Of a DNA stretch of 51,482 nt, positions 5,346-36,429 are shown one piece after another; the first letter of the stretch is position 1; every line of letters starts with the position of its first letter. The stretch is taken from the NCBI GenBank assembly GCA_018819085.1, contig JAHJQT010000059.1, positions 1 to 51,482 on the forward strand, given 5' to 3'. The notes beneath the pieces are model-generated. The model worked only from the letters and a program-made list of their open reading frames with translations. It did no database searches and was not told the origin of the DNA. A program made the position numbers and the translations under genes. The stretch is from Patescibacteria group bacterium (GTDB taxonomy: Bacteria; Patescibacteriota; Minisyncoccia; Portnoybacterales; UBA2143).

Positions 5346-6572
5346 TTAAAATAGATTCCATACCAAATGAAACATAGACCCTTTTAATATTATAGTGATA
5401 ATTACACCAACAAACATCCAAGGAACAAAAGGAAATGGCTTATATATTTTAATTATTTCCATTTCTTCTTTATCATTCTTAAGCCATTTTTTCACTGCTT
5501 CTACTTGTTCTGGTAATAATCCACCCGAATAAAATCTTCCTATGTGTTTATTATAAAATTCCTTATCTTTTTTCATTTTTTCCATAATATCTTCAACTAA
5601 ACTCATTCTTGGCTTAATATCTTCTATTTTTACTTCTTTAATATTAGTTTTAAGAACATGAAAATCAATTAATTTTCTAAATATACTTAAAACAATTATA
5701 AAAATAGTCATCATAATTAAGGTTCTACGAATTGTTTCTATAGTTGAATCATAAGAATTAATCAGCCCATAGCAAACAAGAATAGCAACTAAAATAATAA
5801 CAATTTTAAAAACAATTGGTTTTATAAGAAATTTTATAACCGAATTAGAAAAAATTATGACAACTGCAAAGATAAGAACTTGTATAGAAAAAACATCAAT
5901 AGAAGTATATTTTTGAATTGGAGTTTGAAATAATTTAATAATCAAAAAAAGACCAATAAAAGCAATCATCATTATAGCCATATTTTTAACATTTTCTAAT
6001 ATCTTCTTTTTCCTATCAGCTTTGCTTTCTTGCTTTTTTTCTAAAAGATTATCTTTAGATTTATTTTTTTTACGCAAATAGAGAAATTTCAAATAATATA
6101 AAATAGAAGCAATAAGTAAGTATATGAATATAGGAATAAAAATATTAATCATTAAAACAAATGAAGGGAAAAATAAAAAAAATGACTTCCAGTAAAATGT
6201 TGTTGGCAGAAGAATAGAATAAACAATAAAAAGCTTAGCATCTCCAGCTGCCCAAACATTAAATTTCCACATTAAATAACTAATTATTAAAGCAACGGTC
6301 ATATTAAGAATACATTTCAATAAATAGGAAAGTGAAACGGTAAAAACAACAACTTCATAATCAGCAGGATAATTTAATAGATTAAAATAATAAAAATTAG
6401 TAACTGGCGAAGCAATGAAATGCCATATTAAGAAAAAGAGAATAATCCCTATGCCCCAGCAAGCTCCAAAAATAATCCATTTATTTCTTACCTTGCCACA
6501 TTTAAAATCCTCATAAGTTGTAATTATACCTATAAAAAAAAGTATTGGCAGAGATAATATATTTAAAATCAT
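5346..6572 (-). CDS. Polytopic membrane protein with an N-terminal A24-family (prepilin/preflagellin peptidase-like) aspartyl protease domain and a long C-terminal extension
   Basis: Two A24-type Asp motifs can be read: ITTYEDFKCGKVRNKW (first Asp loop) and VWAAGDAKLFIVY (GxGD-like second Asp). There are many hydrophobic segments and a Lys-rich loop. The start codon overlaps the stop of the upstream radical SAM gene by 1 nt. Confidence 0.55.
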   Translation of the reverse strand: MILNILSLPILFFIGIITTYEDFKCGKVRNKWIIFGACWGIGIILFFLIWHFIASPVTNFYYFNLLNYPADYEVVVFTVSLSYLLKCILNMTVALIISYLMWKFNVWAAGDAKLFIVYSILLPTTFYWKSFFLFFPSFVLMINIFIPIFIYLLIASILYYLKFLYLRKKNKSKDNLLEKKQESKADRKKKILENVKNMAIMMIAFIGLFLIIKLFQTPIQKYTSIDVFSIQVLIFAVVIIFSNSVIKFLIKPIVFKIVIILVAILVCYGLINSYDSTIETIRRTLIMMTIFIIVLSIFRKLIDFHVLKTNIKEVKIEDIKPRMSLVEDIMEKMKKDKEFYNKHIGRFYSGGLLPEQVEAVKKWLKNDKEEMEIIKIYKPFPFVPWMFVGVIITIILKGSMFHLVWNLF

Positions 6573-7498
6573 TATTTTTTATTTATTGTTAAGATAGGAT
6601 GATAAATGTCTTTTGTTTCTTTAATTTTAAAATTATTTTTAATTGGCTTAAACTCCTTAATCCCCATATGTTCTGAATACTCTCTAGGAATGCCTAAACA
6701 ATATTTCTTATATCGACATTGATTACAAGAATTCTTAAATATTACTCCATCTTCAGGTAAAGTTCGCCAAACATAAGACCAAAATTTTTCTGAAATAGTA
6801 CATAAAGGAAAATGGTATAATCTAATTTCCTTAAAACACTTTAATAAATGATAAGTTTTTTCTAAATATGGAGAAACTTGATTATAGGTTATTCTTATTG
6901 CTTTTATATTCTTGACAGCCTGATGTTCAACCTCCCAGAAAATAAGCATTATCCTATCAGTCAAAAGAAATCTTTTTTTCATCATTTTCAGAAACTCTTC
7001 TAAATATTTATAAGAAAGCTTAGTAATCACAAATCTAACATTTATTAACTGCCCTTCTTTTTTATAATTGAGCAAATTTTCTAATCCTTTAATAGTTTGT
7101 TCAAAACTACCTGAAGCTCGAGTAACTGACTCATGAATTTTTTTATTTGGTCCGTAAATAGATAATTCAATGTCTAAATTATTTGTTACATTTAAAACTT
7201 CTTGAGCAAAATCATTGTATAAAAATTTTCTTCCATTAGTTAATAATTTTATTCTTTGTTTTTGGAAACGATCACTAATAAATTTAAGGAACTTTAAAAA
7301 ATCAGGATGCAAGGTTGGTTCTCCTCCGCTTAGATATATTGAATCGTAAGTTTTTATTTTCTCTTCTGATTTTTCTATTCTTTTAATTAAACTTTTATAA
7401 TTATAATCAAAACTACCGTCCCAGGCCGGCCAAGGTCTGTCTGGATTGGTGCACATTAAACACTTATTATTACATTTATCCCAAACACAAATATCCAT
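6572..7498 (-). CDS. Radical SAM protein (short family, C-terminal 4-Cys auxiliary motif)
   Basis: CNNKCLMC triad near the N-terminus. SGGEPTLHPDF SAM-binding-type motif. C-terminal FPLC...CNQCRYKKYCLG motif. Confidence 0.8.
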   Translation of the reverse strand: MDICVWDKCNNKCLMCTNPDRPWPAWDGSFDYNYKSLIKRIEKSEEKIKTYDSIYLSGGEPTLHPDFLKFLKFISDRFQKQRIKLLTNGRKFLYNDFAQEVLNVTNNLDIELSIYGPNKKIHESVTRASGSFEQTIKGLENLLNYKKEGQLINVRFVITKLSYKYLEEFLKMMKKRFLLTDRIMLIFWEVEHQAVKNIKAIRITYNQVSPYLEKTYHLLKCFKEIRLYHFPLCTISEKFWSYVWRTLPEDGVIFKNSCNQCRYKKYCLGIPREYSEHMGIKEFKPIKNNFKIKETKDIYHPILTINKK

Positions 7499-7500
7499 AA

Positions 7501-8424
7501 TTATTTTAACACAGGTTTAAGCTCCTTGTCTCCGTAATGCCGAAGATATTCTTTCCAAATCCCTTCACATAAATCAAATAATTTACATCCTTTACATCTT
7601 TCAGTTTTTTCCCTACCAATTGCTTTTCTTGAATTTTCAACATCAAAATTTTCAAAATCAGGCGCTAAATGTTCTGTTTTAAATGTTGCCACTTCCTGCA
7701 ATTCACTTATTTGATTAAGATAATTCTGAAAATAGCACAAAGGAACATATCTGATATGCCAATGAGGTATCTTATTTTTCCTACCTATATCTAAGCATTT
7801 TTTTACATAAGGAGATATTTCTGAAATTTTTGGAACTATTTCATTGAAATTATCATAAGCAGCTCCATAGCTTGGATCAACGAAAATAAATTCCGAGTTT
7901 CTTATTCCTTGATCAAAAATGAATTTGCCTATCTGAGGCAAATATTTATAATTATCCTTGACTATAGTCGTATTAGAACCAATTTTTTTAAATCCTAATT
8001 TTTTAAAATTATTTAATCCTTCTAACAATTGATCAAAACTACCTTTTGATTGAGTTAAATAATCATGAATTTTAGCATTATGCCCATGAATAGAAAAAAT
8101 AATATCAGTCAGTCCAGCATTAATAACTTTTTTAACATATTCTAAATATGAAAACATTCTGCCATTAGTGGCCATATTAATAGTTTCAAATCCTAATTCT
8201 TTTGCAAATTTTATTAATTCAACAATATCTTGTCTTATGGTCGTTTCTCCACCAATAAATTCTATATAAGTAGTGCCTCTTTTTTTTGCTTCAATCATTT
8301 CCTGTTTAATTTCTTCAGTAGTCTTATTGTGTAATTCTCTTTTACTTTCATCAATGCAAAATCTACAACGATTATTACACGCATAACCAATAATAATAAC
8401 TGTTTTTTTTATTATTTGATTCAT
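7501..8424 (-). CDS. Radical SAM protein (short family, C-terminal 4-Cys auxiliary motif)
   Basis: CNNRCRFC triad. GGETTIRQD, TNGRMFSY and HGHNAKIHD motifs. C-terminal VPLC...CKGCKLFDLCEG. Confidence 0.85.
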   Translation of the reverse strand: MNQIIKKTVIIIGYACNNRCRFCIDESKRELHNKTTEEIKQEMIEAKKRGTTYIEFIGGETTIRQDIVELIKFAKELGFETINMATNGRMFSYLEYVKKVINAGLTDIIFSIHGHNAKIHDYLTQSKGSFDQLLEGLNNFKKLGFKKIGSNTTIVKDNYKYLPQIGKFIFDQGIRNSEFIFVDPSYGAAYDNFNEIVPKISEISPYVKKCLDIGRKNKIPHWHIRYVPLCYFQNYLNQISELQEVATFKTEHLAPDFENFDVENSRKAIGREKTERCKGCKLFDLCEGIWKEYLRHYGDKELKPVLK

Positions 8425-9413
8425 TTATTCGGCTTTACTAATACTGGCACGTATTGATTGTCTTTTTTTATCTTAATAATTCTTTTTTTATCTTTATATA
8501 TTTCAAAATAGCTAGATGTCATTATTAACTTATTTCCTTTTTCAATATTTTTATAAATATTATTTAAATTATTTAAAAATTTAGAATCATTGCTTTGATA
8601 AAATTCTCCAGAACTAATTTCTGAAACAGCTTTATTATATTTAATTTCAGAATTTTTAAAATCTCCATAAAAATCTCCATATAGTAGTATTTTATCAGCG
8701 CAAGTCCAATAAAGAGTAGCTGGTTCTTTAAGAATTAGCTTATTTCGTCTTACTCTTCCAGAATCTACTTCGTTAAATATATCAAATATTTTATCTACAT
8801 ATGAAATGGATTTTTTACAATCCAAATTACAAGGATAGTATGAAAGCAATGGATAAGAAAAAACATTCAATTGCCAAGCAAAATTTTTAGATCTTTTTAA
8901 AGATTCTACTGCAGGATTAGCAAATCCGAAATTATTCGGATCACGTTTTTTATCTCCTTTACTATTTTTACAAAGATAATCACCAAAATCTAAACAACAT
9001 TTAGGATAGCCCATGACTTCACCAAATTTTCTACTATCTTTACTATCAAGTGTTTTTTTATAATACAATTCAACTCCTTCTAACGCTATATTGATATCTT
9101 TTGATACACCTACAGATAATTTCCCCTTTCTTTTATCATTCATATCTACCATTTCAAAAATACCTCTTGGGCTATTTACTATAAATTTATACTTAGAAAC
9201 AGCAAGCTTAAACCCGAGTTTTTTGCATAATTCATTAACTCTGTTTAATTTTTTTATATAAGAATGATCAAAATTATCAAAATTTAACAAATCAGCCAAA
9301 GCAGGCTTAATGTCATACAATACAGCCATTAATTCAATACAAGACAATTCGATAAGTTCTGACATTTCTTGAATCATCTGATAACTCTTTTTAGCTTTTT
9401 CTTTATTAATCAT
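8421..9413 (-). CDS. Hypothetical protein with GYP-x-CC and C-x3-C motifs (function unknown)
   Basis: Long ORF with a 4-nt overlap onto the downstream rSAM gene. It contains GYPKCCLDFGDY and YYPCNLDCKKSIS. A frameshifted paralogue lies at 11863..12555. I do not recognise the family. Confidence 0.5.
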   Translation of the reverse strand: MINKEKAKKSYQMIQEMSELIELSCIELMAVLYDIKPALADLLNFDNFDHSYIKKLNRVNELCKKLGFKLAVSKYKFIVNSPRGIFEMVDMNDKRKGKLSVGVSKDINIALEGVELYYKKTLDSKDSRKFGEVMGYPKCCLDFGDYLCKNSKGDKKRDPNNFGFANPAVESLKRSKNFAWQLNVFSYPLLSYYPCNLDCKKSISYVDKIFDIFNEVDSGRVRRNKLILKEPATLYWTCADKILLYGDFYGDFKNSEIKYNKAVSEISSGEFYQSNDSKFLNNLNNIYKNIEKGNKLIMTSSYFEIYKDKKRIIKIKKDNQYVPVLVKPNK

Positions 9414-9424: not shown

Positions 9425-9760
9425 TTATGAATTAACTACAATCTTTCTCACTATATAAACAATATTTTTCTCTTTCTCTTTACCAACAACCAAAGATACA
9501 CAATCTTCATCTTTAACATCATTACGTTTAATCTCTTTTTGAGAAATTATCTTACCAGATTTAGATAAATTCATCTCTATAAAAGATGTTTCAGGAACAA
9601 AGAAAATCTTAATTTGCTTTTTTTCTAACTTAGGCATCAAATTAATAAAATCTTTTTCTTTTTTGACTATTATTCCATCTAATATTTTATCTAATATTAT
9701 TTTTTTATCAGCATTTTCCTGCTTATTTTTATTTTCTTTTTTCCCAGTATTTTTTTTCAT
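9425..9760 (-). CDS. Small Lys-rich hypothetical protein
   Basis: 111-aa ORF in operon context between an rSAM gene and the GYP-x-CC gene. No recognisable motif. Confidence 0.4.
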   Translation of the reverse strand: MKKNTGKKENKNKQENADKKIILDKILDGIIVKKEKDFINLMPKLEKKQIKIFFVPETSFIEMNLSKSGKIISQKEIKRNDVKDEDCVSLVVGKEKEKNIVYIVRKIVVNS

Positions 9761-9824: not shown

Positions 9825-10694
9825 TTAAAGCTTAAATTCTTTTTTGCCGTATAAATTTATATAAAAACCAGAAACACCAGCGCATTGATTTTTATAATCG
9901 CACTTTTCGCAAATTTTTAATCTAATCTTTTCAGGATTCTCTTCTAAACAAGGAAAAGCCATGTCTCTATATTTTTTAGGAAAAGCGCAAGCAGGATACT
10001 CAACAAACAAAAATTTTATTTCTGGACTATGTTTAGTATAACATTTAATTAATAATGGCGTCACTTCGCTCATTTTGGCTATAATTTTCTTTGAATCAAT
10101 AATCATTTTATTTAAAGGCATAATATGTCCAATATTCATTTCTTTTATCCCAATATTTGCGTAAAAATCTACCATTTCTTGAAGATAGTTAAAATTCATA
10201 TTAGTAATCATAATATTAAGAACTAAACTAAAATATTTATCTCTTAAAGCAATTATATTTTTAAGTCCCTTAAGTGTTTGTTTAAAGCTTCCAGGAACTA
10301 AAGTATGAGAATCATGAATTTTAGCATTATGTCCTGCTACTGTAACAACTATTTGATTCAGGCCGGCATCTAATAAGCTTTTTGTAAAATTTTTGTAAGA
10401 AAACATTCGTCCATTAGTAGTTATACTAACATGTTTAAAATTTTTACTTTTAGCATAAGAAATAATATCTAAAATATCCTTTCTTAATGTTGGCTCTTGC
10501 CCCATTATGTTTATAAAATCAAAATAACTTCTAATTATATCTATTTCATCTTTTATTGTTTTTAAGCTTTTAACTGGAAAATCATAATTTAATTCAAAAC
10601 AAAAAATGCATCTATTATTGCAATGATCTCCAGCGTAAAGTAAAGGGCTTTTCCCTACTGTGTAATGTTCTGTTTTCTTATAATTATTTTTCAT
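9825..10694 (-). CDS. Radical SAM protein (short family, C-terminal 4-Cys auxiliary motif)
   Basis: CNNRCIFC triad. MGQEPTLRKD, TNGRMFSY and GHNAKIHD motifs. C-terminal YPAC...CEKCDYKNQCAG. Confidence 0.85.
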   Translation of the reverse strand: MKNNYKKTEHYTVGKSPLLYAGDHCNNRCIFCFELNYDFPVKSLKTIKDEIDIIRSYFDFINIMGQEPTLRKDILDIISYAKSKNFKHVSITTNGRMFSYKNFTKSLLDAGLNQIVVTVAGHNAKIHDSHTLVPGSFKQTLKGLKNIIALRDKYFSLVLNIMITNMNFNYLQEMVDFYANIGIKEMNIGHIMPLNKMIIDSKKIIAKMSEVTPLLIKCYTKHSPEIKFLFVEYPACAFPKKYRDMAFPCLEENPEKIRLKICEKCDYKNQCAGVSGFYINLYGKKEFKL

Positions 10695-11659
10695 GTTTCT
10701 AATCCTATATTTATTCTACTTAATTCTTTTATCTCTTTAATTCCATATTTTTTAAAATATTGTTTGGTTATTCCTTGGCATTTATTAAAATATAAACATT
10801 TTTTGCAAAAATCTGTTTTTATTCTGTATTTGTCTTGATATATTATTTTGGAATCCTTACTAATTTTATCAACTCTATGAGAAAAACCATATCCAACTTG
10901 TTTCATAGAATGCCTATATCTTGTTTCTGGAGTAAAAAAAAGAATATGTTCGTTATTAAAAAACTTATTTTCAAAAAGACAAAGCGGAAAATCATAAATA
11001 GTAATATTTATTTTATTTGTTAAATTATAAATTTTATTGATATAAGGAGAAATTTTTTTATAATTTACCATTAATATATCATAATTTTCAGCTCCTTTTC
11101 CATCAGGAATTAAATCAAATATATTCCAACGGCTAGAGCCTAATTTATGCACAAACGATCCAATTTCATAAAGATATTTATAATTAATTTTACTTACCAC
11201 TGTACTGGTTAATAAATTTAATCCTTTTATTTTTTTAATATTTTTTATTCCAGCTATACATTGTTCAAATGATCCTGGCGATCTTGTTGCTCCTTCATGT
11301 AGTTTCTTATTATGCCCATATATTGAAACAGTAATATCTTTTAATCCGGCTTTAACTGCTTTTTTACTAAATTCTGGATAAGAAAACATCCTACCATTGG
11401 TAGTGATTCTAATTTTTTTAAAACCTAATTGATTAGCATAACTAATTAGTTTAAAAAAATCTGATCTTATAGTGACTTCACCGCCAAGAAATTCTATTGT
11501 ATTGTATTTCTTTTGATTATGCGCAGTTTTAATGTCTTCCAATATTTCTGAAGTAGATCTATCTTGCGCCCTGTCATTAATATTAGAACAAAAAATGCAA
11601 TTATTATTGCAAGAAAAACCAGTTAATATTAAAAATGCAATTTCTTCATTTTTATTCAT
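10691..11659 (-). CDS. Radical SAM protein (short family, C-terminal 4-Cys auxiliary motif)
   Basis: CNNNCIFC triad. GGEVTIRSD, TNGRMFSY and GHNKKLHE motifs. C-terminal FPLC...CKKCLYFNKCQG. Confidence 0.85.
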   Translation of the reverse strand: MNKNEEIAFLILTGFSCNNNCIFCSNINDRAQDRSTSEILEDIKTAHNQKKYNTIEFLGGEVTIRSDFFKLISYANQLGFKKIRITTNGRMFSYPEFSKKAVKAGLKDITVSIYGHNKKLHEGATRSPGSFEQCIAGIKNIKKIKGLNLLTSTVVSKINYKYLYEIGSFVHKLGSSRWNIFDLIPDGKGAENYDILMVNYKKISPYINKIYNLTNKINITIYDFPLCLFENKFFNNEHILFFTPETRYRHSMKQVGYGFSHRVDKISKDSKIIYQDKYRIKTDFCKKCLYFNKCQGITKQYFKKYGIKEIKELSRINIGLET

Positions 11660-11862: not shown

Positions 11863-12555
11863 TTATTTAAAATAAATAATATTATCTTTTTTATTAAATT
11901 TACTATATTCTTCTAATTTAATAATCTTGTTTTTACAAACCTTAAACTTACATTTTAGATATTCCTGGTATTCTAAAAAATAATTCCTATTATATTCTTT
12001 TAGAATCATTAAATTCTCCTTACCAGCACTTATTGATTTCTTGCAATTAAAAGAATGTGGCAGATGAAATAAGGGATTATTATTTTGACAAATATTAACA
12101 GCTTTATTAAATGAATTCCCGCTAGAATTAGCTAAAATTTTCAAATTTATTAAATCTTGACTCGGCTCAATAAAACCTATCTGCTTTTTTTATTTTCGGC
12201 AAACCAATCAATTAAAAAATCCACAAACCAATCAATACAACAATCAGGATAACCATATATTCTACCTGCTTCTCTATTTGTTTTAATAAGTGCTTCGTCA
12301 TTATGATTCTCACTTCGATATAATTCAATTAATCTATTTATTTTTTTCTTGTTTTTTTTTATTTTTTGAAAAATAAATATGAGCTTTTACTTCTTTACTT
12401 CTCACATCATCTGACTCATTAACTATTTTATAATATAAAGAAAAACTTTTTATTTTTTTGACAAAAAAATCTATTTTCTTTTGAGAAAAACACTCTATCC
12501 TGCCAACAGGTCTAATATCTTTCTTAATAGATAATATATTAATTATTAATTTCAT
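11863..12555 (-). pseudogene. Paralogue of the GYP-x-CC protein (8421..9413), broken into three frame segments by two homopolymer frameshifts
   Basis: Segment 1 is 12334..12555 and segment 3 is 11863..12189 (includes the TTG-start ORF 11863..12144); they share a frame. The middle segment (~12180..12386, other frame) reads ...INRLIELYRSENHNDEALIKTNREAGRIYGYPDCCIDWFVDFLIDWFAENKK. Segment 3 contains HSFNCKKSIS, matching YPCNLDCKKSIS of the intact paralogue. The frame switches coincide with T9/T7 runs at 12341-12360 and a T7 run at 12185-12191. Confidence 0.5.
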
Positions 12556-12563
12556 TTTTTATA

Positions 12564-14811: not shown

Positions 14812-14817
14812 AAAAAA

Positions 14818-29709: not shown

Positions 29710-30807
29710 CTATAAAATTTTACTTTCTGGAGATCTACGACAGCATCTTTGACAGACATAAAACAATCCATTATTTTTTATTTCATTGAAAAGTTTTTTT
29801 GCTCTCTGACCATTTAATATTTCTTCTAATGGCATTTTTTTTATATTACCAAGATAATAAAAAGAAATACTACATCCAGGGAATACATCTCCATTTTGAT
29901 CTATCCTTATTTGTTTAAAAACATTAGGACAACTATTAATTTTATGGCAACCATCAGAAAACCATTTTTTATACTTTTTGTCTGAATCAAAATCAGGAAA
30001 AAATAATACACGCATTCTAGATTTTTCAGATAATTTTCTTTTTATTAAATTAATTTTTCTTACAACTTCATTTATTTCTTTTTTATTAAGCTTGCCTAAT
30101 TTATTATCTAATCCCTCTATTAATTTTGCTCGCTCTTCATAAACATTAAATCTTTCATGAAATTCATTAACGCATTTATCTATAATTAAAGAATTTGACC
30201 ATTGTGCCAACGAAAAAGAAAGTACATCGCATTTAACATCTTCAGCTAAAGACAAAACACTATCAAAAGATCCTACATTTAATTTATTTATTACAGTATT
30301 AATAGCTAATAAGGGAAGGTAAAAATTAATATTTTCTTTCATTATTTGTAATTTTTTAATGCTTTCTAATGTTCTATTAAAGTTTCCATTACCTCTATTG
30401 GCATCGTGATCAACAGAATTTCCATCTATGGAAAACATTAAAGCAGAAGTTTGATTTTTAATTAATTCCGAAAAAATCTTTTTGTCATTATGTGTTCCAT
30501 TTGTAAATATCATTAATTTAACTTTTTGTTTTTTTGCATGTTTCAATATATTAAAAATATTAGGATTTAAAAATGGCTCCCCACCAGATAAATTAATCGT
30601 AATATCATTATAATCTTCAAATCGCTTCAATTGTTCTACCAGCTTTTTAAAAAGTTCAAAAGTGAAATTACAACTCTTATTATTAAAAAAAGATATCTTT
30701 TTTTCTTTAATGCCTGTTAAAAAACATGTCTTACATTTTAAATTACATAAGTTTGTTGTTTCAATAGTAATTTTTTCTAAATAATTATTCAAAAATTTTA
30801 ATTTCAT
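29710..30807 (-). CDS. Radical SAM/SPASM-domain protein (possible HxsC counterpart)
   Basis: CNLKCKTC triad and SGGEPFLNPN motif. C-terminal Cys-rich region CPNVFKQIRIDQNGDVFPGC...CQRCC. The HxsC idea rests only on size and context. Confidence 0.75.
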   Translation of the reverse strand: MKLKFLNNYLEKITIETTNLCNLKCKTCFLTGIKEKKISFFNNKSCNFTFELFKKLVEQLKRFEDYNDITINLSGGEPFLNPNIFNILKHAKKQKVKLMIFTNGTHNDKKIFSELIKNQTSALMFSIDGNSVDHDANRGNGNFNRTLESIKKLQIMKENINFYLPLLAINTVINKLNVGSFDSVLSLAEDVKCDVLSFSLAQWSNSLIIDKCVNEFHERFNVYEERAKLIEGLDNKLGKLNKKEINEVVRKINLIKRKLSEKSRMRVLFFPDFDSDKKYKKWFSDGCHKINSCPNVFKQIRIDQNGDVFPGCSISFYYLGNIKKMPLEEILNGQRAKKLFNEIKNNGLFYVCQRCCRRSPESKIL

Positions 30808-30813: not shown

Positions 30814-31872
30814 TTATTTTTCACTTAAAATATTATTACAATAGTGTTTATAATACCAGAAACTAGGCAATACAGAGATAAATTTCTGTTGTTTTGTAAA
30901 AATACTTTTATATTTTCCTCTTACTGCAACCATAGCAGCATTATCTCCACAAAACTCTTTTTTTAATGGTGCTTTGAAAACAATTTTATTTTTAACAGCA
31001 ATATTTTTTATTTTATCTTTAAAAATAGAATTAGCAGAAACACCACCAACTAAATGCATTTCTTTAACCTTATAATCTTTAGCAATTTTTAAGAATTCTT
31101 GTCCTAATAAATTAAAGATATAATCTAAAAAACTAAAAGATAAATTTCTTTGAAAATTCTCATTTAATAAATTTTTTCTATATTTTGAGTAAATTTTTTC
31201 AATTGCCTTATTTGTATCTAAAATTATTAACGTATTTTTATTTCGTTTAATTCTTATTTCGTTTAATTCAGGAATTTCTATTTTTTTTCCTCTTTTAGCA
31301 AGATCAGAAAGCATATTTCCACCATCACCAGTTTTTATAATCTTAATTCTCATTCCATGGCAAAATACATCAAAAAGTGCTGCAATTCCATTAAAAGAAT
31401 TTTTTTTAGAATCCCATACTATGGAAATTAACTTATTAATTTTTTTGTGACTTTCCTGATAATATATAGCTGTATGAGCACCAGAGACGCTTAAACCAAG
31501 AATAGGAAATTTGAATTCTTTTTCTTGTCTTTCGAGCCAATTTGAATAAAGATGTGCAATTTCATGATCAATGCCTATGATTTTCTTTTTTTTAGAATAA
31601 CCTAAAATACAAGCAGCTGTAACACCTATTGGAAGAGATTGAAATGTACCCTTTTTATTAATAACTGAGATTAATTTAATTTTGTTCCATGTGTTATCAG
31701 GCAATAAATTTAAAAGATCTACCAAATTTTTTATATGAGCACTAAAAAATCTATCAGCATCTTGATCATAAAGATCTATACTTATAGATTTGTTAAATTT
31801 AACTTTATTATTATTATCAATTAAAGCTAATCCAGTAGTATGAAATGTTGTGTCAATACCTAAAAATAACAT
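30814..31872 (-). CDS. Second divergent Kae1/TsaD-family protein
   Basis: FLGIDTT start, DHEIAH His pair, SVSGAHT, VGGVSAN and CGDNAAMVA motifs. It is the first gene after the hairpin at 31913-31940. Confidence 0.65.
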   Translation of the reverse strand: MLFLGIDTTFHTTGLALIDNNNKVKFNKSISIDLYDQDADRFFSAHIKNLVDLLNLLPDNTWNKIKLISVINKKGTFQSLPIGVTAACILGYSKKKKIIGIDHEIAHLYSNWLERQEKEFKFPILGLSVSGAHTAIYYQESHKKINKLISIVWDSKKNSFNGIAALFDVFCHGMRIKIIKTGDGGNMLSDLAKRGKKIEIPELNEIRIKRNKNTLIILDTNKAIEKIYSKYRKNLLNENFQRNLSFSFLDYIFNLLGQEFLKIAKDYKVKEMHLVGGVSANSIFKDKIKNIAVKNKIVFKAPLKKEFCGDNAAMVAVRGKYKSIFTKQQKFISVLPSFWYYKHYCNNILSEK

Positions 31873-31961: not shown

Positions 31962-32954
31962 TTATTTATTATATTCTTCAGAATAAAATTCACACATTAA
32001 ATTTTTAGCTTGATTATGAAATATTTCACAATCTTCATATTTTTTCAGTTCACATTCTTTTGTTCCATTAAACCCAAAATCTTTACAATTTATATAATCC
32101 AAACTCATCACATAATGTTTACATTTTTCTTTTGAATCTAAATCTGGAATAGAATCACATAATTCTAAAGCTAATTCTTTATCACCAACACGAAAAGCCA
32201 AAGATGATCTCATCAAAAATTGAACACTTAATAAATCAACATCGTTTGACCATGGAAACTCTATATTATCTTTCTCAAAATTAGACCAATCATTGCTATA
32301 TCTAATAATATTTTCGCATAGACTATTACATCTACGTTCTGCTTCATTAAACACTTCTTTAGAAAGTTTATTTCTTCTTTCTGGTAATAATGCTCCTGAA
32401 TTTAAACAAATTTCTAAAAAATAATCTGTTATTTTATTATTTGGACATATTTTTTCTATAGGCATTAAAGCAATGCCATTAGCATATTCATATTGAACAC
32501 TTAATAATCCTATCTTATTATTATTTTCATCATATCTATTAAGTATTGCACCTAATGAATCTATGCTTAGAATATATTCCTTTGTATAATCTGAAATTTT
32601 TAATTCTTGAATTAAAGATGTTGTTCTTTTATATAATTCATTAAATATATGTTTATCAAAATCTTCTCTATAATTAATTAATTCACATGATAAATACCGT
32701 ACCATTTCAAAATTAATCATTTCTAATTCCTTATCTGTAAAAAAATTTGAATTATTTATTTCTTTTATAAATTTCTCATCACTCATTTTATTAACTTTTT
32801 CTAAGCAATTTGATTTAATTTCTAATTTTGTTGTGTCTGAAGAATTATTAAAAAAATTATATTTTTCTTGCGAATATAAAAAACTGGCCAATAAACCAAC
32901 CATTAATAAAACAACTATTAATATAAATAATAATATTTTATTTTTTAAATTCAT
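31962..32954 (-). CDS. Membrane-anchored Cys-rich hypothetical protein
   Basis: N-terminal hydrophobic helix ILLFILIVVLLMVGLLASFLY followed by a ~300-aa domain with many Cys residues. It starts 11 nt after the stop of the His-Xaa-Ser ORF. Confidence 0.6.
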   Translation of the reverse strand: MNLKNKILLFILIVVLLMVGLLASFLYSQEKYNFFNNSSDTTKLEIKSNCLEKVNKMSDEKFIKEINNSNFFTDKELEMINFEMVRYLSCELINYREDFDKHIFNELYKRTTSLIQELKISDYTKEYILSIDSLGAILNRYDENNNKIGLLSVQYEYANGIALMPIEKICPNNKITDYFLEICLNSGALLPERRNKLSKEVFNEAERRCNSLCENIIRYSNDWSNFEKDNIEFPWSNDVDLLSVQFLMRSSLAFRVGDKELALELCDSIPDLDSKEKCKHYVMSLDYINCKDFGFNGTKECELKKYEDCEIFHNQAKNLMCEFYSEEYNK

Positions 32955-32965: not shown

Positions 32966-33406
32966 TTAATATGACGAATGAGAGCCATGGGATCCGTGTG
33001 AACTATGTGAGCCATGGGATCCGTGTGAGCCATGTGAACCATGGGAACCATGTGAACCGTGGGAACCATGTGAACCGTGGGAACCATGTGAGCCGTGGGA
33101 ACCATGTGAGCCGTGGGAACCATGTGAGCCGTGGGAACCATGTGAGCCGTGAGAGCTATGGGAACCATGAGAAGAATGGGAACCATGAGAACTGTGAGAG
33201 CTATGGGATCCATGAGAGCTGTGAGAGGCATGAGTACAAGCTGCTGAAGCTGGATCTGCTTTCATTGCTCCAGCTAGACCAACACCTAAGGCCACAAAAG
33301 TTAATGCTATTTTAGCAACACTTTTTTTATTGATTCTTCCTTCTTCACTCGTTAAAAAAGCCTTGATATCTTTTTTAATCTGAGGTATTTTTATTTTTTT
33401 TATCAT
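32966..33406 (-). CDS. His-Xaa-Ser repeat protein (HxsA-like candidate radical SAM substrate)
   Basis: The 58-aa N-terminal part has a hydrophobic stretch and an ASA site. It is followed by ~29 consecutive H-[GSA]-S triplets and a terminal Tyr. It is the longest of three frames open across the repeat, and the only one with a plausible N-terminal domain and operon fit. Confidence 0.75.
   Translation of the reverse strand: MIKKIKIPQIKKDIKAFLTSEEGRINKKSVAKIALTFVALGVGLAGAMKADPASAACTHASHSSHGSHSSHSSHGSHSSHGSHSSHGSHGSHGSHGSHGSHGSHGSHGSHGSHGSHGSHGSHGSHGSHGSHGSHSSHGSHGSHSSY
32972..33232. repeat. Coding tandem repeat (9-nt His-Xaa-Ser unit, with a core of near-perfect 18-nt units)
   Basis: Visible units ccatgtgaaccgtgggaa and ccatgtgagccgtgggaa repeat head-to-tail between ~33030 and ~33150. 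Degenerate copies flank this core. Confidence 0.9.
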
Positions 33407-33456
33407 TGAATGATTAATCTAATATTACAAAACAGAAGCAGTTTTTACTTTTTTTA

Positions 33457-33560: not shown

Positions 33561-33571
33561 CTTGAAAATAT

Positions 33572-34225
33572 TTAAGATGGGGTATCTCCTCCTGAACGTG
33601 GCCGAGACCTATCTCGCGGATCAACGTCTCCCTTGAAATAAATGTTAAACGTCGACTCAATTATGAGCCACTTCCCATTTTGATTTACTAAATGAAGTTC
33701 TTTAGTTAACCAAAGGAGATCCCCTCCTTCAGCAGAGATTGATGCTACAGCATCAACCTCTGCTGTTAACCCGTTAACTTCGATTTCGAAAGATTCGTAT
33801 TTTACAAATCCTGCCGCCTCAAATGCGGCTGGAAACATCTTCGTGTAAACCATCTTTGTCACAATTCGTTGTTCTCGCCCAACCATAATTTTCGCTTCTG
33901 AGTGGAATAATGAAAGATATCCCACCACGTCCCTCTTATTCCATGTCTGCTCAGACTTAAACAAAACTTCTCTAACTAAGTCTTTCGCTCCTGTTGTGAT
34001 AGAAGAAGTGGGAGTAGTTACAATGATGGGCCCAGAATCACGAGCTGGATTATAGACAGCGTTAGAACTAATGTTTCCAGCACCTCCAGAAGAAGGACCT
34101 CCGCTCCTAATTTGAATATTCATTCCGGCTACTGAATAGCCACCAATGAGATGTTCACCACCACATGCCGTAAGAAACGTTCCTACAGCTACTATTGTCA
34201 TTACTATCATTAGATTCTTTCTCAT
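33572..34225 (-). CDS. Lipoprotein with NTF2/SnoaL-like C-terminal domain; compositionally foreign
   Basis: Lipobox in MRKNLMIVMTIVAVGTFLTAC-GG. Strong SD (AGGAGGAAAAATC before the ATG). Clearly higher G+C than both neighbours. The NTF2-like call is a weak impression from the C-terminal half. Confidence 0.7.
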   Translation of the reverse strand: MRKNLMIVMTIVAVGTFLTACGGEHLIGGYSVAGMNIQIRSGGPSSGGAGNISSNAVYNPARDSGPIIVTTPTSSITTGAKDLVREVLFKSEQTWNKRDVVGYLSLFHSEAKIMVGREQRIVTKMVYTKMFPAAFEAAGFVKYESFEIEVNGLTAEVDAVASISAEGGDLLWLTKELHLVNQNGKWLIIESTFNIYFKGDVDPRDRSRPRSGGDTPS

Positions 34226-34321: not shown

Positions 34322-35770
34322 TCACTTGTCAAGCCATTTTTTGAAAATTTCTTTTATTTTTGGATCTTGCAATTTTTCAAATAAGAAAGAAATCATAGCT
34401 TTATTGATCTTACATCTTTCATTGGTTGGCATTTGTCCAAAAATATTTCCTTGTTCAGCATAATTATAAATAGGACAGATTCCACAATATGGCTTATAAG
34501 CACAATCATCACATCCAGCTAAACCATCAAGACAAGAAGCAGTACATAAAGTTCTCACTATTGGATTTCCAACTATTTCCTGATATGTATTTTCTTTAAC
34601 ATTTCCTAAACAAAAACTTTCATCGTTCATCATACTCATCATTCTTCCCTCATCGCAAGTATAGACATTACCGTTATAATTATAAGCTAATTGACCTATT
34701 CCTGCTCCACAAGGAGATCTAAAATCTAAATGGTTAGGATCTTTTTCAGTTAAAATTTTCTTTAAAAAAGTTACAGCTGCTTTTTCTCTAACTTTTTTTC
34801 CTTTAAGATTTAATCCTATAATATACGAAAGAGCATTTTTGTAAAAATTAATATATTCATCAGCTGTATAGCCTATTTTTTTAAAACTTTCTTTAAGAAG
34901 TCCAAAAGGATTTAATGGTCTTCCTAAATAAAAATCATCAAAACCTAATTTTATATACTCATCAACTATTTCCTTATAATAAGACAGAGAGAAACGACTT
35001 ATGGTTACAGATAGTCCTATTTTGAAAATATACCCTTTTTTTCTTAATTGCGGATATAATTTAAAAAATTTCTTAGACCATTTAGTTGCATAATAATAGC
35101 TATTACCCTTAACCATTGGACGATTCTTATTATGAACTTTTTCAGGACCATCTATAGAAACACAAAAACTGACATTTTTATCAAGCAAATACTTAAATTT
35201 TTCCTCGGTCATTAATGAAAAGTTGGAAACTAGTCTAATCTCTAAATCTTTTTTAGCCTTTTTATTCTTTTTATAAGCTTCTTCTATGATAAATTTAACT
35301 ATTGGCCAATTTACTAATGGCTCGCCTCCTTGAAATTCAATAGCAACAAAAGGACTTGTTGTTTGAAATATTTTTTCAACAACATTTTTAGCTGTTTCTT
35401 TATCCATATCTAAATCAGTCCTGTCCATTGCTTGAGCGCTAGCATGACAATAAACACATTTATGATTACATCTTAAGGTGACAACAACAATATGCAAACT
35501 TGGACCATTGAATAAAAAAGAATTTTTTAAACGATATTTATCTATTGATTCTGTTAAATCTAAATCTTTTTTAATAAAACTCTTTTTATTTAAGGATAAA
35601 TATGGTTCTTTGTCTTTTTCTAAATTATCAGATAAAAAATCTTTAAATTCTTTTTTTGTTAAAAATAAAAAACCACCAACATCATTTGTTAAAAGATATT
35701 TATCTTTTATTTTTTTAAAACGAAAAAATCCAAGCTTATTATATTTAATTTTTTTTAAGTCAGATAACAT
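34322..35770 (-). CDS. Radical SAM/SPASM maturase, anSME-like architecture (HxsB-like)
   Basis: CNHKCVYC triad and FQGGEPLVNW motif. SPASM region CGAGIGQLAYNYNGNVYTCDEGR...CDDCAYKPYCGICP. N-terminal FRFKKIKDKYLLTNDVGGFLFLTKKEFKDFL extension. 482 aa. Confidence 0.85.
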   Translation of the reverse strand: MLSDLKKIKYNKLGFFRFKKIKDKYLLTNDVGGFLFLTKKEFKDFLSDNLEKDKEPYLSLNKKSFIKKDLDLTESIDKYRLKNSFLFNGPSLHIVVVTLRCNHKCVYCHASAQAMDRTDLDMDKETAKNVVEKIFQTTSPFVAIEFQGGEPLVNWPIVKFIIEEAYKKNKKAKKDLEIRLVSNFSLMTEEKFKYLLDKNVSFCVSIDGPEKVHNKNRPMVKGNSYYYATKWSKKFFKLYPQLRKKGYIFKIGLSVTISRFSLSYYKEIVDEYIKLGFDDFYLGRPLNPFGLLKESFKKIGYTADEYINFYKNALSYIIGLNLKGKKVREKAAVTFLKKILTEKDPNHLDFRSPCGAGIGQLAYNYNGNVYTCDEGRMMSMMNDESFCLGNVKENTYQEIVGNPIVRTLCTASCLDGLAGCDDCAYKPYCGICPIYNYAEQGNIFGQMPTNERCKINKAMISFLFEKLQDPKIKEIFKKWLDK

Positions 35771-35777
35771 TTTTAAT

Positions 35778-36044
35778 TTATGACCTCATTAAAAAAAAGA
35801 CGTAATTACAAAACTCGTCTTTAATTATTTTTTCAACGCTTTTGTCAATATTGCTCAATTCTACCTGAATATATTTTTTTGTTTTCTTAAAGCTAAAATC
35901 AGCTAAATTATTATATTCTTTTATAGCTGATTTTATTGATTTAAGATTATATAAGTTTTTATTAAAACTAATCAGTATTCTCTCTTTTTTGTTACGCTGT
36001 TTTCCTGTTTTGTTTTTTGATTGTTTTTTCTGTTTTTTCACCAT
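35778..36044 (-). CDS. Small HxsD-like domain protein (second copy)
   Basis: The ORF track gives a TTG start at 36068. I prefer the ATG at 36042-36044 (MVKKQKK...). The C-terminal part ILISFNKNLYNLKSIKSAIKEY...IIKDEFCNYVFFLMR is co-linear with the upstream HxsD-like ORF. It overlaps that ORF by ~50 nt. Confidence 0.4.
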   Translation of the reverse strand: MVKKQKKQSKNKTGKQRNKKERILISFNKNLYNLKSIKSAIKEYNNLADFSFKKTKKYIQVELSNIDKSVEKIIKDEFCNYVFFLMRS

Positions 36045-36429
36045 ATTTGTCTTCCCATGGTATAGCAATACCTAAAGGATCATCTTCGTATTTTACTTCA
36101 TCCTCCTTATTAACTTGATCATCTCCAAAAGCTGAAAACAATGCCTGACTAATAATATACTCCCTTATTTTCCTATTATTCTTAGATAAATTAATTCTGA
36201 CAGTATAATTTAAAAGTTCATTCAAAAACTCGCCTTTAAGATTTTTTAATTGCTTTTCGTTTAATTTATTTTTTCCTTTTAAAGATACCTCTATTTTTCT
36301 AGATGATTTATTATCTAAAAATAAATATGCTTTATCAAGAAAAACATAAGCTGCTCCATAAAGAGCTTCCTTAGGATAATTCTGAAGATCAAAAACAAAC
36401 CTTATAGTATTATTTCTTAAATCTACCAT
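35992..36429 (-). CDS. HxsD-like protein
   Basis: EFLNELLNYTVRINL resembles the LLNDYxLRE signature that, as I recall, names the HxsD family model. It lies immediately upstream of the HxsB-like rSAM. Confidence 0.5.
   Translation of the reverse strand: MVDLRNNTIRFVFDLQNYPKEALYGAAYVFLDKAYLFLDNKSSRKIEVSLKGKNKLNEKQLKNLKGEFLNELLNYTVRINLSKNNRKIREYIISQALFSAFGDDQVNKEDEVKYEDDPLGIAIPWEDKYGEKTEKTIKKQNRKTA

What the first reader, a model, noticed from the sequence alone, without database searches (positions are those of the whole stretch)
5346..36429. Fourteen radical SAM genes in one ~31 kb co-directional, translationally coupled block
Seen in sequence: I can read a CX3CX2C triad in 14 separate ORFs. 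They are 6572, 7501, 9825, 10691, 12564, 13447, 14818, 16935, 17911, 24794, 25751, 28435, 29710 and 34322 (start coordinates). All are on the minus strand. Many junctions are 1-14 nt start/stop overlaps, at 6572, 8421-8424, 10691-10694, 13447-13460, 16167-16170, 17911-17918, 18887-18894, 20151-20161, 21382-21392 and 24102-24105.

At least four architectures are present. The first is a short family sharing P-[LYA]-C...C-x2-C-x5-C-x-G at the C-terminus (a probable auxiliary 4Fe-4S site). The second is a set of three two-module SPASM proteins. The third is a HemN-like protein. The fourth is two anSME-like/SPASM proteins.

Established knowledge: characterised RiPP and cofactor clusters normally carry one to a few rSAM enzymes.

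Inference: this density around a single repeat substrate points to a multi-step or combinatorial radical modification pathway with no described counterpart. It is striking in what looks like a small-genome organism.
Basis: partly seen in the sequence, partly recalled or inferred. Interest (0 to 1): 0.93.

Follow-up and report, generated by a model that had tools for sequence, protein, structure and literature searches.

The report
Giant radical-SAM His-Xaa-Ser maturation locus
A tiny-genome (CPR/Patescibacteria-type) bacterium carries a conserved ~32 kb operon-like block with 14 radical SAM enzymes, built around a secreted His-Gly/Ser-Ser repeat protein; it is a greatly expanded, undescribed version of the four-gene HXS system recently shown to block phage DNA entry in E. 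coli.

Summary
All 14 named minus-strand ORFs have CX3CX2C and pass the Pfam Radical_SAM gathering score, and the ten start/stop overlaps are real.

The block is a His-Xaa-Ser (HXS) system. HxsD, an HxsD-like protein, HxsB and HxsA4 (about 29 H-x-S repeats) all pass NCBIfam cut-offs. Eight short rSAMs are divergent HxsC-like paralogues, below the HxsC cut-offs. Three two-module rSAMs reuse the HxsC C-terminal Cys module.

It is not a chance juxtaposition. Two other Patescibacteria genomes, with HxsB 69-74% identical, show the same layout. An Hxs head is followed by a variable tailoring middle. A conserved rSAM tail ends in an A24-type peptidase and a PKD surface protein. They carry about 11-12 rSAM domains each, and one is not next to pilus genes. 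Each paralogue has its own 50-84% orthologue, while paralogues share 38% or less.

The pathway has a described counterpart: HXS, a four-gene antiphage system (2026). It is not shown that all 14 enzymes act on HxsA4.

Verdict: a new, extreme variant of a known kind. The chemistry and the biological role are unknown.

The parts
35992..36429 (-). HxsD (small partner protein of the His-Xaa-Ser system)
   Evidence: NCBIfam TIGR03976, 63.5 bits against a cut-off of 50. Pfam HxsD is recorded on the source contig.
35778..36068 (-). HxsD-like second small protein. The real start is probably downstream of the listed TTG, which overlaps HxsD.
   Evidence: NCBIfam NF038315 HxsD_rel, 65.5 bits against 41. 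A 65-88 aa orthologue sits between HxsD and HxsB in all close relatives.
34322..35770 (-). HxsB, an rSAM/SPASM maturase
   Evidence: TIGR03978, 531.7 bits against 370. PF04055 and PF13186.
33572..34225 (-). Probable lipoprotein (sequence ...LTAC) with a weak DUF4440/NTF2-like hit. Present at this position only in some relatives.
32966..33406 (-). HxsA4 precursor. It has a conserved leader (IKKDIKAFLTSEEGRINKK), a hydrophobic segment, an ASA|AC site, about 29 H-[GS]-S repeats and a C-terminal SSY.
   Evidence: NF038313, 108.8 bits against 55. A 9-bp tandem repeat x28.6 lies at 32978-33234.
31962..32954 (-). Membrane-anchored Cys-rich protein (12 Cys). It always follows HxsA4 in relatives. No known family.
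30814..31872 (-). TsaD/Kae1-like protein 2 (divergent, not the housekeeping TsaD)
   Evidence: PF00814. TIGR03723, 122.7 bits against 296.
29710..30807 (-). rSAM/SPASM enzyme
   Evidence: PF04055 60.6 bits and PF13186 37.1 bits.
28435..29700 (-). HemN/HemW-like (class C-type) rSAM
   Evidence: PF04055 63.3 bits. HemN-family hits of 70-84 bits, all below cut-off. HemN-like genes recur in relatives.
27320..28426 (-). Stand-alone AlaRS catalytic-domain homologue
   Evidence: PF01411 94.8 bits, profile positions 62-352 of 552. alaS 101.8 bits against 457.
25751..27313 (-). Two-module rSAM, family B: an N-terminal HxsC-tail-like Cys module, then the rSAM core, then a C-terminal Cys module
   Evidence: A 67% orthologue sits right after the Hxs head in L015.
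24794..25744 (-). Short HxsC-like rSAM (distant subgroup A')
   Evidence: PF04055 51.7 bits. HxsC is the best NCBIfam hit, 61.4 bits.
24102..24791 (-). Sua5/YrdC-type adenylate-forming protein
   Evidence: PF01300 124.8 bits. TIGR00057, 122.5 bits against 123.2. A TsaD-Sua5 pair is conserved inside the block in L006, M1 and M2.
22495..24105 (-). NodU/CmcH/TobZ-type carbamoyltransferase
   Evidence: PF02543 and PF16861.
21382..22488 (-). TsaD/Kae1-like protein 1 (divergent)
   Evidence: PF00814 121.7 bits. TIGR03723, 165 bits against 296.
20151..21392 (-). ATP-grasp ligase
   Evidence: PF02655.
18887..20161 (-). PLP-dependent Orn/DAP/Arg-type decarboxylase
   Evidence: PF02784. LysA-like, 201.8 bits against 297.9.
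16935..18894 (-). Two tandem short HxsC-like rSAMs (16935-17918 and 17911-18894), 63% identical to each other
   Evidence: Orthologues at 46-48% in L067.
16167..16916 (-). Short-chain dehydrogenase/reductase
   Evidence: PF00106 161 bits.
13447..16170 (-). Two two-module family B rSAMs (14818-16170 and 13447-14811)
   Evidence: Orthologues at 52-77% in L006, L067, M1 and M2.
12564..13460 (-). Short HxsC/HxsC4-like rSAM. It is the most conserved member, with orthologues at 61-84% identity in many Patescibacteria.
11866..12534 (-). Frameshifted (probably decayed) copy of a conserved 232-aa DUF483-like gene
   Evidence: tblastn with the M1 232-aa protein gives 44.5% identity over 229 aa with in-frame stops. 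The GYPDCC segment lies in another frame.
9825..11659 (-). Two short HxsC/HxsC4-like rSAMs (10691-11659 and 9825-10694)
9425..9760 (-). Small Lys-rich ORF with no family. A 36% homologue sits next to HxsD in L021.
8421..9413 (-). Conserved DUF483-like protein with invariant GYPxCC and PCxxxC. Its fold has no solved relative.
   Evidence: The AF2 model has pLDDT 90.9. The best PDB hit has E 0.28.
6572..8424 (-). Two short HxsC-like rSAMs (7501-8424 and 6572-7498). 6572 is the closest to canonical HxsC.
   Evidence: TIGR03977, 175.3 bits against 267.9 for 6572. Orthologues at 51-84%.
5346..6572 (-). Polytopic membrane protein of a type IV leader peptidase (A24)-like family. It is the terminal gene of the conserved tail.
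   Evidence: 6 of 8 family members hit PF01478 (best E 1.4e-10). D22 and D111 (WAAGDAKLF) are invariant. The window protein itself has no Pfam hit. Homologues sit next to HxsD-HxsB in distant loci L035, L049 and L053.
4193..5287 (-). Secreted PKD/Ig-like surface protein. It follows the A24-like gene in every relative examined.
   Evidence: Orthologues at 48-67% with PF18911 PKD_4 in L006, L007, L067, L068 and M2.

Best explanation
The block is a single, vertically inherited, greatly expanded His-Xaa-Ser (HXS, 'HxsA4-type') protein-maturation system of a CPR/Patescibacteria bacterium.

Proposed steps:
1. The precursor HxsA4 has a conserved N-terminal leader, a hydrophobic export segment, about 29 His-Gly/Ser-Ser repeats and a C-terminal Tyr. 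It is held in the cytoplasm by the two small HxsD-type proteins.
2. It is modified there by HxsB and a battery of HxsC-derived radical SAM paralogues: 8 short and 3 two-module enzymes, plus a SPASM and a HemN-like enzyme. Each is assumed to perform a distinct radical step repeated along the array.
3. An exchangeable set of non-radical enzymes adds further decoration. This set comprises Sua5/YrdC with two TsaD-like proteins and a NodU carbamoyltransferase (acyl- or carbamoyl-adenylate transfer), an ATP-grasp ligase, an AlaRS-like adenylating enzyme, a PLP decarboxylase and an SDR.
4. The product is then processed and exported. The dedicated A24-like membrane peptidase and/or signal peptidase (at ASA|AC) are assumed to take part.
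5. It ends on the cell surface together with the Cys-rich anchor protein and the PKD protein.

By analogy with E. coli HXS, it may guard the envelope against incoming phage DNA. Its broad conservation fits a constitutive envelope component equally well.

Shown here: family memberships, the paralogue/orthologue structure and the synteny. Inferred: the substrate assignment for all enzymes, the order of steps, the chemistry, the role of the A24-like peptidase and the biological role.
For: - Hxs identity: HxsB 531.7 bits against 370, HxsA4 108.8 against 55, HxsD 63.5 against 50, and HxsD_rel 65.5 against 41.
- For all 8 short rSAMs the best NCBIfam hits are HxsC or HxsC4 (46-175 bits). Some alignments run nearly the full profile length.
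- All 8 share the P-x-C...C-x2-C-x5-C-x-G tail, which is duplicated in the three two-module proteins.
- Layout in relatives: merged loci from GCA_964596615.1 (M1) and GCA_964601305.1 (M2) run HxsD, HxsD_rel, HxsB, HxsA4, Cys-rich protein, variable middle, TsaD-Sua5, B1, the 12564 orthologue, then the other HxsC-like rSAM orthologues (7501 and 6572 types in both) with, in M1, the DUF483-like gene, then the A24-like gene and the PKD gene. M2 has no DUF483-like gene. Both are co-directional.
- M2 lies between a ribonucleotide reductase gene and a sigma-70 gene, not next to pili. The head-tail link is therefore independent of the pilus neighbourhood.
- HxsB and the 12564 orthologue share a contig in at least 7 further or overlapping cases. 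This is inferred from identical longest-contig lengths of 163635, 201829, 60362, 47832, 60343, 28622 and 25106.
- In L015 the Hxs head is followed directly by a 67% orthologue of 25751 and further rSAMs.
- Distant HxsA4-type loci (HxsB 40-47% identical) also combine an HxS-rich ORF carrying the same 'FL.SEEGKI' leader with 2-5 HxsC-like rSAMs. Three of them also have the A24-like gene beside HxsD.
- Paralogues are 38% identical or less (one pair 63%), while each has its own orthologue at 50-84%. This points to old, functionally distinct copies under selection.
- The Hxs and rSAM proteins are as conserved as PilB, PilT and PilC in the same genome pair.
- The E. coli precedent shows that HxsB, HxsC and HxsD mature HxsA (N-terminal processing and +8 Da on an HxS motif), that HxsC and HxsD form a complex, and that the product is exported (PMC13128918).
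Against: - No ORF passes the HxsC or HxsC4 equivalog cut-offs (best 175 against 268, and 170 against 500).
- The canonical order D-B-C-A is not kept, and HxsA4 has no peptidoglycan-binding domain.
- The middle third of the block is not conserved. In L014 and L018 about 9 kb of non-rSAM genes follow the Hxs head. Relatives carry GT1, GT2, GT28 and PMT_2 glycosyltransferases, a sulfotransferase, an AsnB-like gene, a PKS and B12-rSAMs instead. These could equally serve a glycan, a lipid or another protein.
- For L006, L067 and L069 the Hxs head was not within the 10 kb seen upstream.
- No experiment links any of these rSAMs to HxsA4.
- The window's own A24-like protein has no significant Pfam hit, and the profile comparison with PilD is weak (E 0.062).
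- A single transcript is not demonstrated. The promoter and terminator scans are uninformative in this AT-rich DNA.
Confidence: 0.6

Rival explanations
1. There are two systems side by side. A small Hxs module (HxsD, HxsD_rel, HxsB, HxsA4 and the Cys-rich protein) is complete in itself. The remaining roughly 26 kb, with 13 rSAMs, builds or modifies something else: a surface glycoconjugate or lipid, or the adjacent PKD protein or pilins. The A24-like peptidase would then process a pilin-like substrate.
For: - The middle of the block is variable and rich in sugar and small-molecule enzymes in relatives: GT1, GT2, GT28, PMT_2, GFO/IDH/MocA, a sulfotransferase and a PKS.
- The tail is always followed by a PKD protein, and usually by pilins.
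- L014 and L018 separate head and tail by about 9 kb or more of unrelated genes.
- A24 peptidases normally cleave pilin-type leaders (established knowledge).
- BlsE-type and MoaA-type small-molecule rSAMs are among the sub-threshold hits.
Against: - The tail rSAMs are HxsC-like by best hit and by their shared Cys tail.
- Head and tail stay co-directional on one contig in all genomes where both could be seen, including one without pili nearby.
- Distant HxsA4 loci pack several HxsC-like rSAMs and the A24-like gene directly against HxsB, HxsD and HxsA.
- In this reading the Hxs head would lack any HxsC partner, although HxsC is essential in E. coli.
Confidence: 0.25
2. HxsA4 is a sacrificial scaffold rather than a structural protein. 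The many enzymes convert each H-x-S unit into a small molecule, either a peptide-derived cofactor or a metallophore. This would resemble PQQ or mycofactocin biosynthesis, and the product would be released by proteolysis.
For: - rSAM-SPASM enzymes paired with a small partner protein are the hallmark of PQQ and mycofactocin pathways (established knowledge). PqqE and MftC are among the sub-threshold hits for the family B proteins.
- A decarboxylase, an SDR, an ATP-grasp ligase and adenylate-transfer enzymes are typical small-molecule tailoring enzymes.
- The repeat number varies freely from 24 to 60, as expected if only the unit matters.
Against: - HxsA4 carries an export signal and is followed by membrane and surface proteins.
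- No dedicated soluble protease is present in the block.
- In E. coli the matured HxsA acts as a protein.
Confidence: 0.1
3. The block is an assembly artefact or a chance accumulation of unrelated rSAM genes.
For: The source is a metagenome contig from a MEGAHIT-style assembly (record name k141_30529). One gene inside the block is frameshifted.
Against: - The HxsB region is recovered identically in three independent sources: ENA, an NCBI MAG and a Logan run.
- Gene order is reproduced in several independent assemblies at 50-84% protein identity.
Confidence: 0.02

Closest known systems
HXS antiphage system, HxsD-HxsB-HxsC-HxsA (Haft and Basu's His-Xaa-Ser system; Li et al., Nat Commun 2026, PMC13128918)
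   Same: It has an HxS-repeat precursor with an export signal, the HxsB rSAM/SPASM enzyme and the HxsD small partner, all above NCBIfam cut-offs here. It has HxsC-type rSAMs with the same C-terminal Cys tail. Maturation occurs in the cytoplasm before export.
   Different: - The known system has 4 genes, 2 rSAMs and 5 repeats, and HxsA carries a peptidoglycan-binding domain. 99.7% of its occurrences are in Pseudomonadota, with a patchy, mobile distribution.
- Here there are about 29 genes, 14 rSAMs and about 29 repeats, and no peptidoglycan-binding domain.
- No HxsC is at equivalog level, and none is next to HxsB.
- Added components are an A24-like peptidase, DUF483-like proteins, TsaD/Sua5/NodU, an ATP-grasp ligase, an AlaRS-like protein, a decarboxylase and an SDR.
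- The block is conserved with synteny across Patescibacteria.
NCBIfam 'type 4' Hxs models: HxsA4 (NF038313), HxsD_rel (NF038315) and HxsC4 (NF038332, 'rare')
   Same: HxsA4 and HxsD_rel are met here. Five short rSAMs have HxsC4 as best or second-best hit.
   Different: The HxsC4 cut-off of 500 bits is far from met (at most 170 bits). These models name single proteins. I found no published description of the 11-14-rSAM block.
Multi-rSAM RiPP pathways, such as polytheonamide (PoyB/C/D), and rSAM-SPASM peptide-derived cofactors (PQQ PqqE/PqqD; mycofactocin MftC/MftB)
   Same: A leader-bearing precursor is modified iteratively by rSAM enzymes, together with a small partner protein and further tailoring enzymes.
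   Different: From established knowledge, those clusters hold one to about three rSAMs. Here there are 14, most of them paralogues of one family. None reaches the cut-off of PqqE, MftC or any named RiPP maturase.
TobZ / NodU / HypF and Sua5-TsaD (YrdC-like plus Kae1-like) adenylate-transfer enzymes
   Same: The block has a YrdC/Sua5 domain protein, two TsaD/Kae1-like proteins and a NodU-type carbamoyltransferase. These are the parts needed to make and transfer a carbamoyl- or threonylcarbamoyl-adenylate.
   Different: The TsaD-like proteins score far below the t6A TsaD cut-off (165 and 123 bits against 296) and sit inside an rSAM operon. The acceptor is unknown.

Membership tests
Radical SAM superfamily (PF04055) | CX3CX2C cluster motif and a Pfam score above the gathering score | tested here: met
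   14 of 14 ORFs: the motif, and 42.9-93.7 bits against 29.5.
His-Xaa-Ser (HXS) system | HxsA: a precursor with tandem His-Xaa-Ser repeats | tested here: met
   NF038313 HxsA4, 108.8 bits against 55. A 9-bp repeat x28.6.
His-Xaa-Ser (HXS) system | HxsB rSAM/SPASM maturase | tested here: met
   TIGR03978, 531.7 bits against 370.
His-Xaa-Ser (HXS) system | HxsD small protein | tested here: met
   TIGR03976, 63.5 bits against 50, plus HxsD_rel at 65.5 against 41.
His-Xaa-Ser (HXS) system | HxsC rSAM at equivalog level, adjacent to HxsB (order D-B-C-A in 99.6% of systems) | tested here: not met
   The best HxsC score is 175.3 bits against 267.9 (ORF 6572). The best HxsC4 score is 170.5 against 500 (ORF 12564). 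The gene after HxsB is a lipoprotein and then HxsA4.
His-Xaa-Ser (HXS) system | [quoted passage not shown] | not testable with these tools
   No domain other than the low-complexity 'collagen' hit is found on HxsA4. Activity needs an experiment. PADLOC 2023 has no HXS model.
SPASM/twitch rSAM subfamily (PF13186) | C-terminal auxiliary Fe-S domain recognised by the SPASM model | tested here: inconclusive
   Met for 29710 (37.1 bits against 21.5) and borderline for 34322 (21.6). It is not called for the three two-module proteins or the 8 short ones, which instead have a 4-Cys P-x-C...CX2CX5C module.
HemN/HemW (class C rSAM) | Score above any HemN, HemW, HemZ or ChuW equivalog cut-off | tested here: not met
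   ORF 28435 scores 70-84 bits against cut-offs of 205-400. It is HemN-like only.
tRNA t6A TsaD | TIGR03723 equivalog score of 296 bits or more | tested here: not met
   165.1 and 122.7 bits.
Type IV leader peptidase A24 (PF01478) | Pfam hit and two catalytic Asp residues (including a GxGD-type motif) | tested here: inconclusive
   The window protein has no hit. 6 of 8 aligned family members hit PF01478 (best E 1.4e-10). D22 and D111 in WAAGDAKLF are invariant. hhalign against PilD gives E 0.062 but aligns both Asp residues.

The most novel reading that the evidence does not exclude
Patescibacteria with roughly 1 Mb genomes devote about 3% of their coding capacity to a vertically inherited line of 11-14 rSAM enzymes. 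This line would turn a secreted poly(His-Gly/Ser-Ser) protein into a new kind of heavily cross-linked and decorated envelope polymer. It would involve several radical chemistries not yet described, such as multiple distinct HxsC-type reactions, C1 insertion by HemN-like or B12 rSAMs, and carbamoyl- or aminoacyl-adenylate transfer onto the repeats. The product would be a core feature of CPR cell-surface biology, for example phage or DNA gatekeeping, or host attachment, rather than an accessory defence island.
Probability: 0.3. Interest if true: 0.9.

Novelty: new variant of a known kind. Interest (0 to 1): 0.72.

Why it matters
- The chemistry of the HXS modification is unsolved, even in E. coli. 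There it is a +8 Da change on an SHRSS motif, and in vitro reconstitution has failed.
- This locus and its relatives offer a natural series. HxsC has diversified into 8-11 separately conserved paralogues acting next to a very simple, highly repetitive substrate. That makes them a rich source of candidate new radical reactions, and a comparative handle on what HxsB, HxsC and HxsD do.
- The HXS system was thought to be 99.7% proteobacterial and to have four genes. Here it has a much larger, ancient form in the Candidate Phyla Radiation.
- If this is correct, these minimal-genome organisms spend about 30 kb on one modified surface protein, which argues that it is important for their lifestyle.

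Tried and rejected
- A genome-contig scan with the two-module rSAM 25751 returned only two distant hits, from a Methanosarcinales MAG and a Planctomycetia MAG. It was of no use for synteny.
- PADLOC gave only generic viperin-level rSAM similarity and has no HXS model.
- The profile comparison of the A24-like family with PilD was statistically weak. The family assignment rests on Pfam hits of orthologues instead.
- The AF2 model of the DUF483-like protein is confident (pLDDT 90.9). It has no PDB fold match better than E 0.28 (NleE, TM 0.25-0.38), so no function could be assigned.
- A conserved 69-70 aa ORF lies upstream of the 12564 orthologue in relatives. I considered it as an alternative precursor, but it is absent from the window.
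- I considered the gap at 11659-12564 as a hidden precursor gene or a 15th rSAM (the N-half of the 627-643 aa double rSAM of relatives). tblastn shows no rSAM remnant there. It shows a frameshifted DUF483-like gene instead.
- Promoter and terminator scans were not above the shuffled expectation.
- Four literature searches found no description of this CPR block.
- I considered a pilin-type (class III) cleavage of HxsA4 by the A24-like peptidase. The conserved SEEG(K/R)I motif is not followed directly by the hydrophobic segment, so this is left as speculation.

Full report
**1. Observation**

The window is AT-rich, at 22-32% GC over most of its length. From 45985 down to 468 its genes all lie on the minus strand.

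All 14 exceed the Pfam Radical_SAM gathering score (42.9-93.7 bits against 29.5). The refutation test 'most lack the rSAM fold' therefore fails. Most other junctions are 2-18 nt; a few are 64-165 nt.

The only real break is 11659-12564. It contains a frameshifted homologue of a conserved 232-aa DUF483-like gene: 44.5% identity over 229 aa with internal stops, and the GYPDCC segment in another frame.

The motif P-x-C...C-x2-C-x5-C-x-G is in all eight short rSAMs. It is present twice in the three two-module proteins.

**2. What the genes are**

NCBIfam places four genes at the upstream end of the block, all above curated cut-offs:
- HxsD (35992-36429; 63.5 bits against 50)
- an HxsD-like protein (35778-36068; 65.5 against 41)
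- HxsB (34322-35770; 531.7 against 370)
- HxsA4 (32966-33406; 108.8 against 55)

HxsA4 has a conserved leader, a hydrophobic segment, an ASA|AC site and about 29 H-[GS]-S units. The units are encoded by a 9-bp repeat x28.6.

The eight short rSAMs are 6572, 7501, 9825, 10691, 12564, 16935, 17911 and 24794. Their best hits are HxsC or HxsC4, but all fall below the cut-offs: at most 175 bits against 268, and at most 170 against 500.

The three two-module proteins (13447, 14818, 25751) are 40-47% identical to one another. Their N-domain resembles the C-terminal half of the short family.

The other two rSAMs are 28435, which is HemN-like, and 29710, which is an rSAM/SPASM.

The non-radical genes are:
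- an SDR
- a PLP decarboxylase
- an ATP-grasp ligase
- two TsaD-like proteins (165 and 123 bits against the 296-bit TsaD cut-off)
- a NodU-type carbamoyltransferase
- a Sua5/YrdC protein
- a stand-alone AlaRS catalytic-domain homologue

The block ends with a polytopic membrane protein. Its family hits the type IV leader peptidase model A24 in 6 of 8 members and has two invariant Asp residues. The window protein itself has no Pfam hit. A PKD-type surface protein follows.

A conserved DUF483-like protein (8421-9413) gives a confident AF2 model with no solved structural relative.

The flanks encode a type IV pilus apparatus and pilins.

**3. Relatives and synteny**

The window is ENA contig ERZ27247117 k141_30529. 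The HxsB region recurs identically in an NCBI MAG and in a Logan assembly.

The 12564 protein has more than 2,300 homologues. The top 120 are 61-84% identical, and the named ones are all Patescibacteria. HxsB and the DUF483-like protein show the same taxonomic picture.

The contexts of five 12564 orthologues all show an rSAM-dense cluster. The four closest (L006, L007/L008, L067, L068) also share 1:1 orthologues of the tail. These are B1, 12564, some or all of 10691, 9825 and the DUF483-like gene, then 7501, 6572, the A24-like gene and the PKD gene, at 43-84% identity. Paralogues within the window share 38% or less, except one pair at 63%.

Matching contig lengths between two protein searches showed that HxsB and the 12564 orthologue lie on the same contig in at least seven cases.

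I fetched both ends for two genomes and merged them. GCA_964596615.1 gave M1 (40.8 kb) and GCA_964601305.1 gave M2 (35.4 kb). Both show the window's plan:
- Head: HxsD, HxsD_rel, HxsB, (lipoprotein), HxsA4, Cys-rich protein.
- Middle: variable.
- Tail: TsaD, Sua5 and the conserved rSAM genes, ending in the A24-like and PKD genes.

The two blocks carry about 11 and 12 rSAM domains. M2 is flanked by ribonucleotide reductase and sigma-70 genes rather than pilus genes. The head-tail link therefore does not depend on the pilus neighbourhood.

The middle differs between genomes. It holds GT1, GT2 and GT28 glycosyltransferases, a sulfotransferase, an AsnB-like gene, a methyltransferase and a B12-rSAM. 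A PMT_2 gene and a PKS occur in the more distant L069. In L014 and L018 about 9 kb of non-rSAM genes follow the head.

More distant HxsA4-type loci (HxsB 40-47% identical) also combine an HxS-rich ORF with 2-5 HxsC-like rSAMs. That ORF carries the same FL.SEEGKI leader. Three of these loci have the A24-like gene beside HxsD.

**4. Interpretation**

The best-supported reading is one expanded HXS maturation system with three sections: a conserved head, a conserved HxsC-derived rSAM tail, and an exchangeable tailoring middle.

The four-gene E. coli system gives the mechanistic template. HxsB, HxsC and HxsD are needed for N-terminal processing and for a +8 Da change on an HxS motif. HxsC binds HxsD. 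The product is exported and blocks phage DNA entry (PMC13128918).

For the window, the family memberships, the paralogue/orthologue structure and the synteny are shown. It is inferred that every rSAM acts on HxsA4 and that each performs a distinct iterative step. It is also inferred that the adenylate-transfer enzymes decorate the repeats, that the A24-like protein processes the precursor, and that the role is antiphage or envelope-related.

The Hxs and rSAM proteins are as conserved as the pilus ATPases in the same genome pair. This looks like vertical inheritance of an envelope feature rather than a mobile defence island. Function may therefore differ from E. coli.

The main rival (confidence about 0.25) is that the tail and middle serve another substrate, either a glycan or the PKD protein or pilins. 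A scaffold-to-small-molecule pathway is a minor rival. An assembly artefact is excluded by the synteny.

**5. Comparison and novelty**

As an HXS system, the block meets three of the four component tests (HxsA, HxsB, HxsD). It fails the HxsC equivalog test and the gene-order test. HxsA4 also lacks the peptidoglycan-binding domain of the characterised HxsA.

The published survey reports that more than 99.8% of HXS systems have four proteins and that 99.7% are in Pseudomonadota. Four full-text searches found no description of a multi-rSAM CPR form. NCBIfam does already curate HxsA4, HxsD_rel and HxsC4 as single-protein families.

I therefore rate the block a new, extreme variant of a known kind. 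'No described counterpart' is too strong. 'Unprecedented rSAM density in one conserved system' stands.

**6. Verdict**

Interest is 0.72. For a specialist, 11-14 separately conserved rSAMs around a trivial repeat substrate in minimal genomes is striking. It also gives a comparative route into the unsolved HXS chemistry. The system type is known, however, and nothing about the chemistry or role is demonstrated here.

Noticed in passing
window 11866-12534 (-): A frameshifted copy of a conserved 232-aa DUF483-like gene lies inside the otherwise tightly packed block. It is intact in GCA_964596615.1. It is either a pseudogene or an assembly error at A-runs.
   Followed up: partly
window 1518-4217 and 4193-5287 (-): Two surface proteins share a C-terminal module of about 230 aa (PKD/FN3-like, ...SNPSPTTNNQTVLISTSPDTPSSDQLAYNTTYYWRV...). 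The smaller one is conserved after the A24-like gene in all relatives.
   Followed up: partly
window 8421-9413 (-): The DUF483-like protein has invariant GYPxCC and PCxxxC motifs and about 80 homologues. All are hypothetical proteins from CPR, plus one annotated as Aenigmatarchaeota. The AF2 model has pLDDT 90.9 and no significant PDB fold match; the top hit is a weak one to the Cys methyltransferase NleE.
   Followed up: yes
L006 9791-10000; L067 9780-9989; L069 9732-9944: A conserved 69-70 aa ORF (..DPFLVT..FPY.E..G.K..) lies immediately upstream of the 12564 orthologue in relatives. It is absent from the window. Its role is unknown.
   Followed up: partly
L006 10894-12819; L008 10899-12782; L067 10905-12836: Relatives fuse two HxsC-like rSAM domains into one 627-643 aa protein. 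The window keeps only the C-terminal half as ORF 10691-11659.
   Followed up: partly
L069 (ERZ28564302 scaffold_204), whole locus: A more divergent version of the rSAM cluster sits next to a type I PKS, a PPTase, a sulfatase, PMT_2 and GT2 genes, and two tandem DUF483 genes.
   Followed up: no
window 48222-48422 (+) and 46-51 kb: Two adjacent tRNA-Ser genes (anticodons gct and tga) are present. GC rises to about 38% and the genes switch to the plus strand at the right end of the window.
   Followed up: no
window 32966-33406 and orthologues: The HxsA4 repeat number varies from about 24 to 60 between relatives. The C-terminus always ends in an aromatic residue in the close relatives (SSY, GNY, SNY, PAY). 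Distant systems end in W or in W followed by Cys (GGWC/GSWC, GQW, GWPW), except L053, which ends in YG.
   Followed up: no
L004 (Methanosarcinales MAG CAZPXC010000032.1) 1052-2359: A 35-37% homologue of the two-module rSAM occurs in an archaeal MAG near a PilB-like ATPase gene.
   Followed up: no
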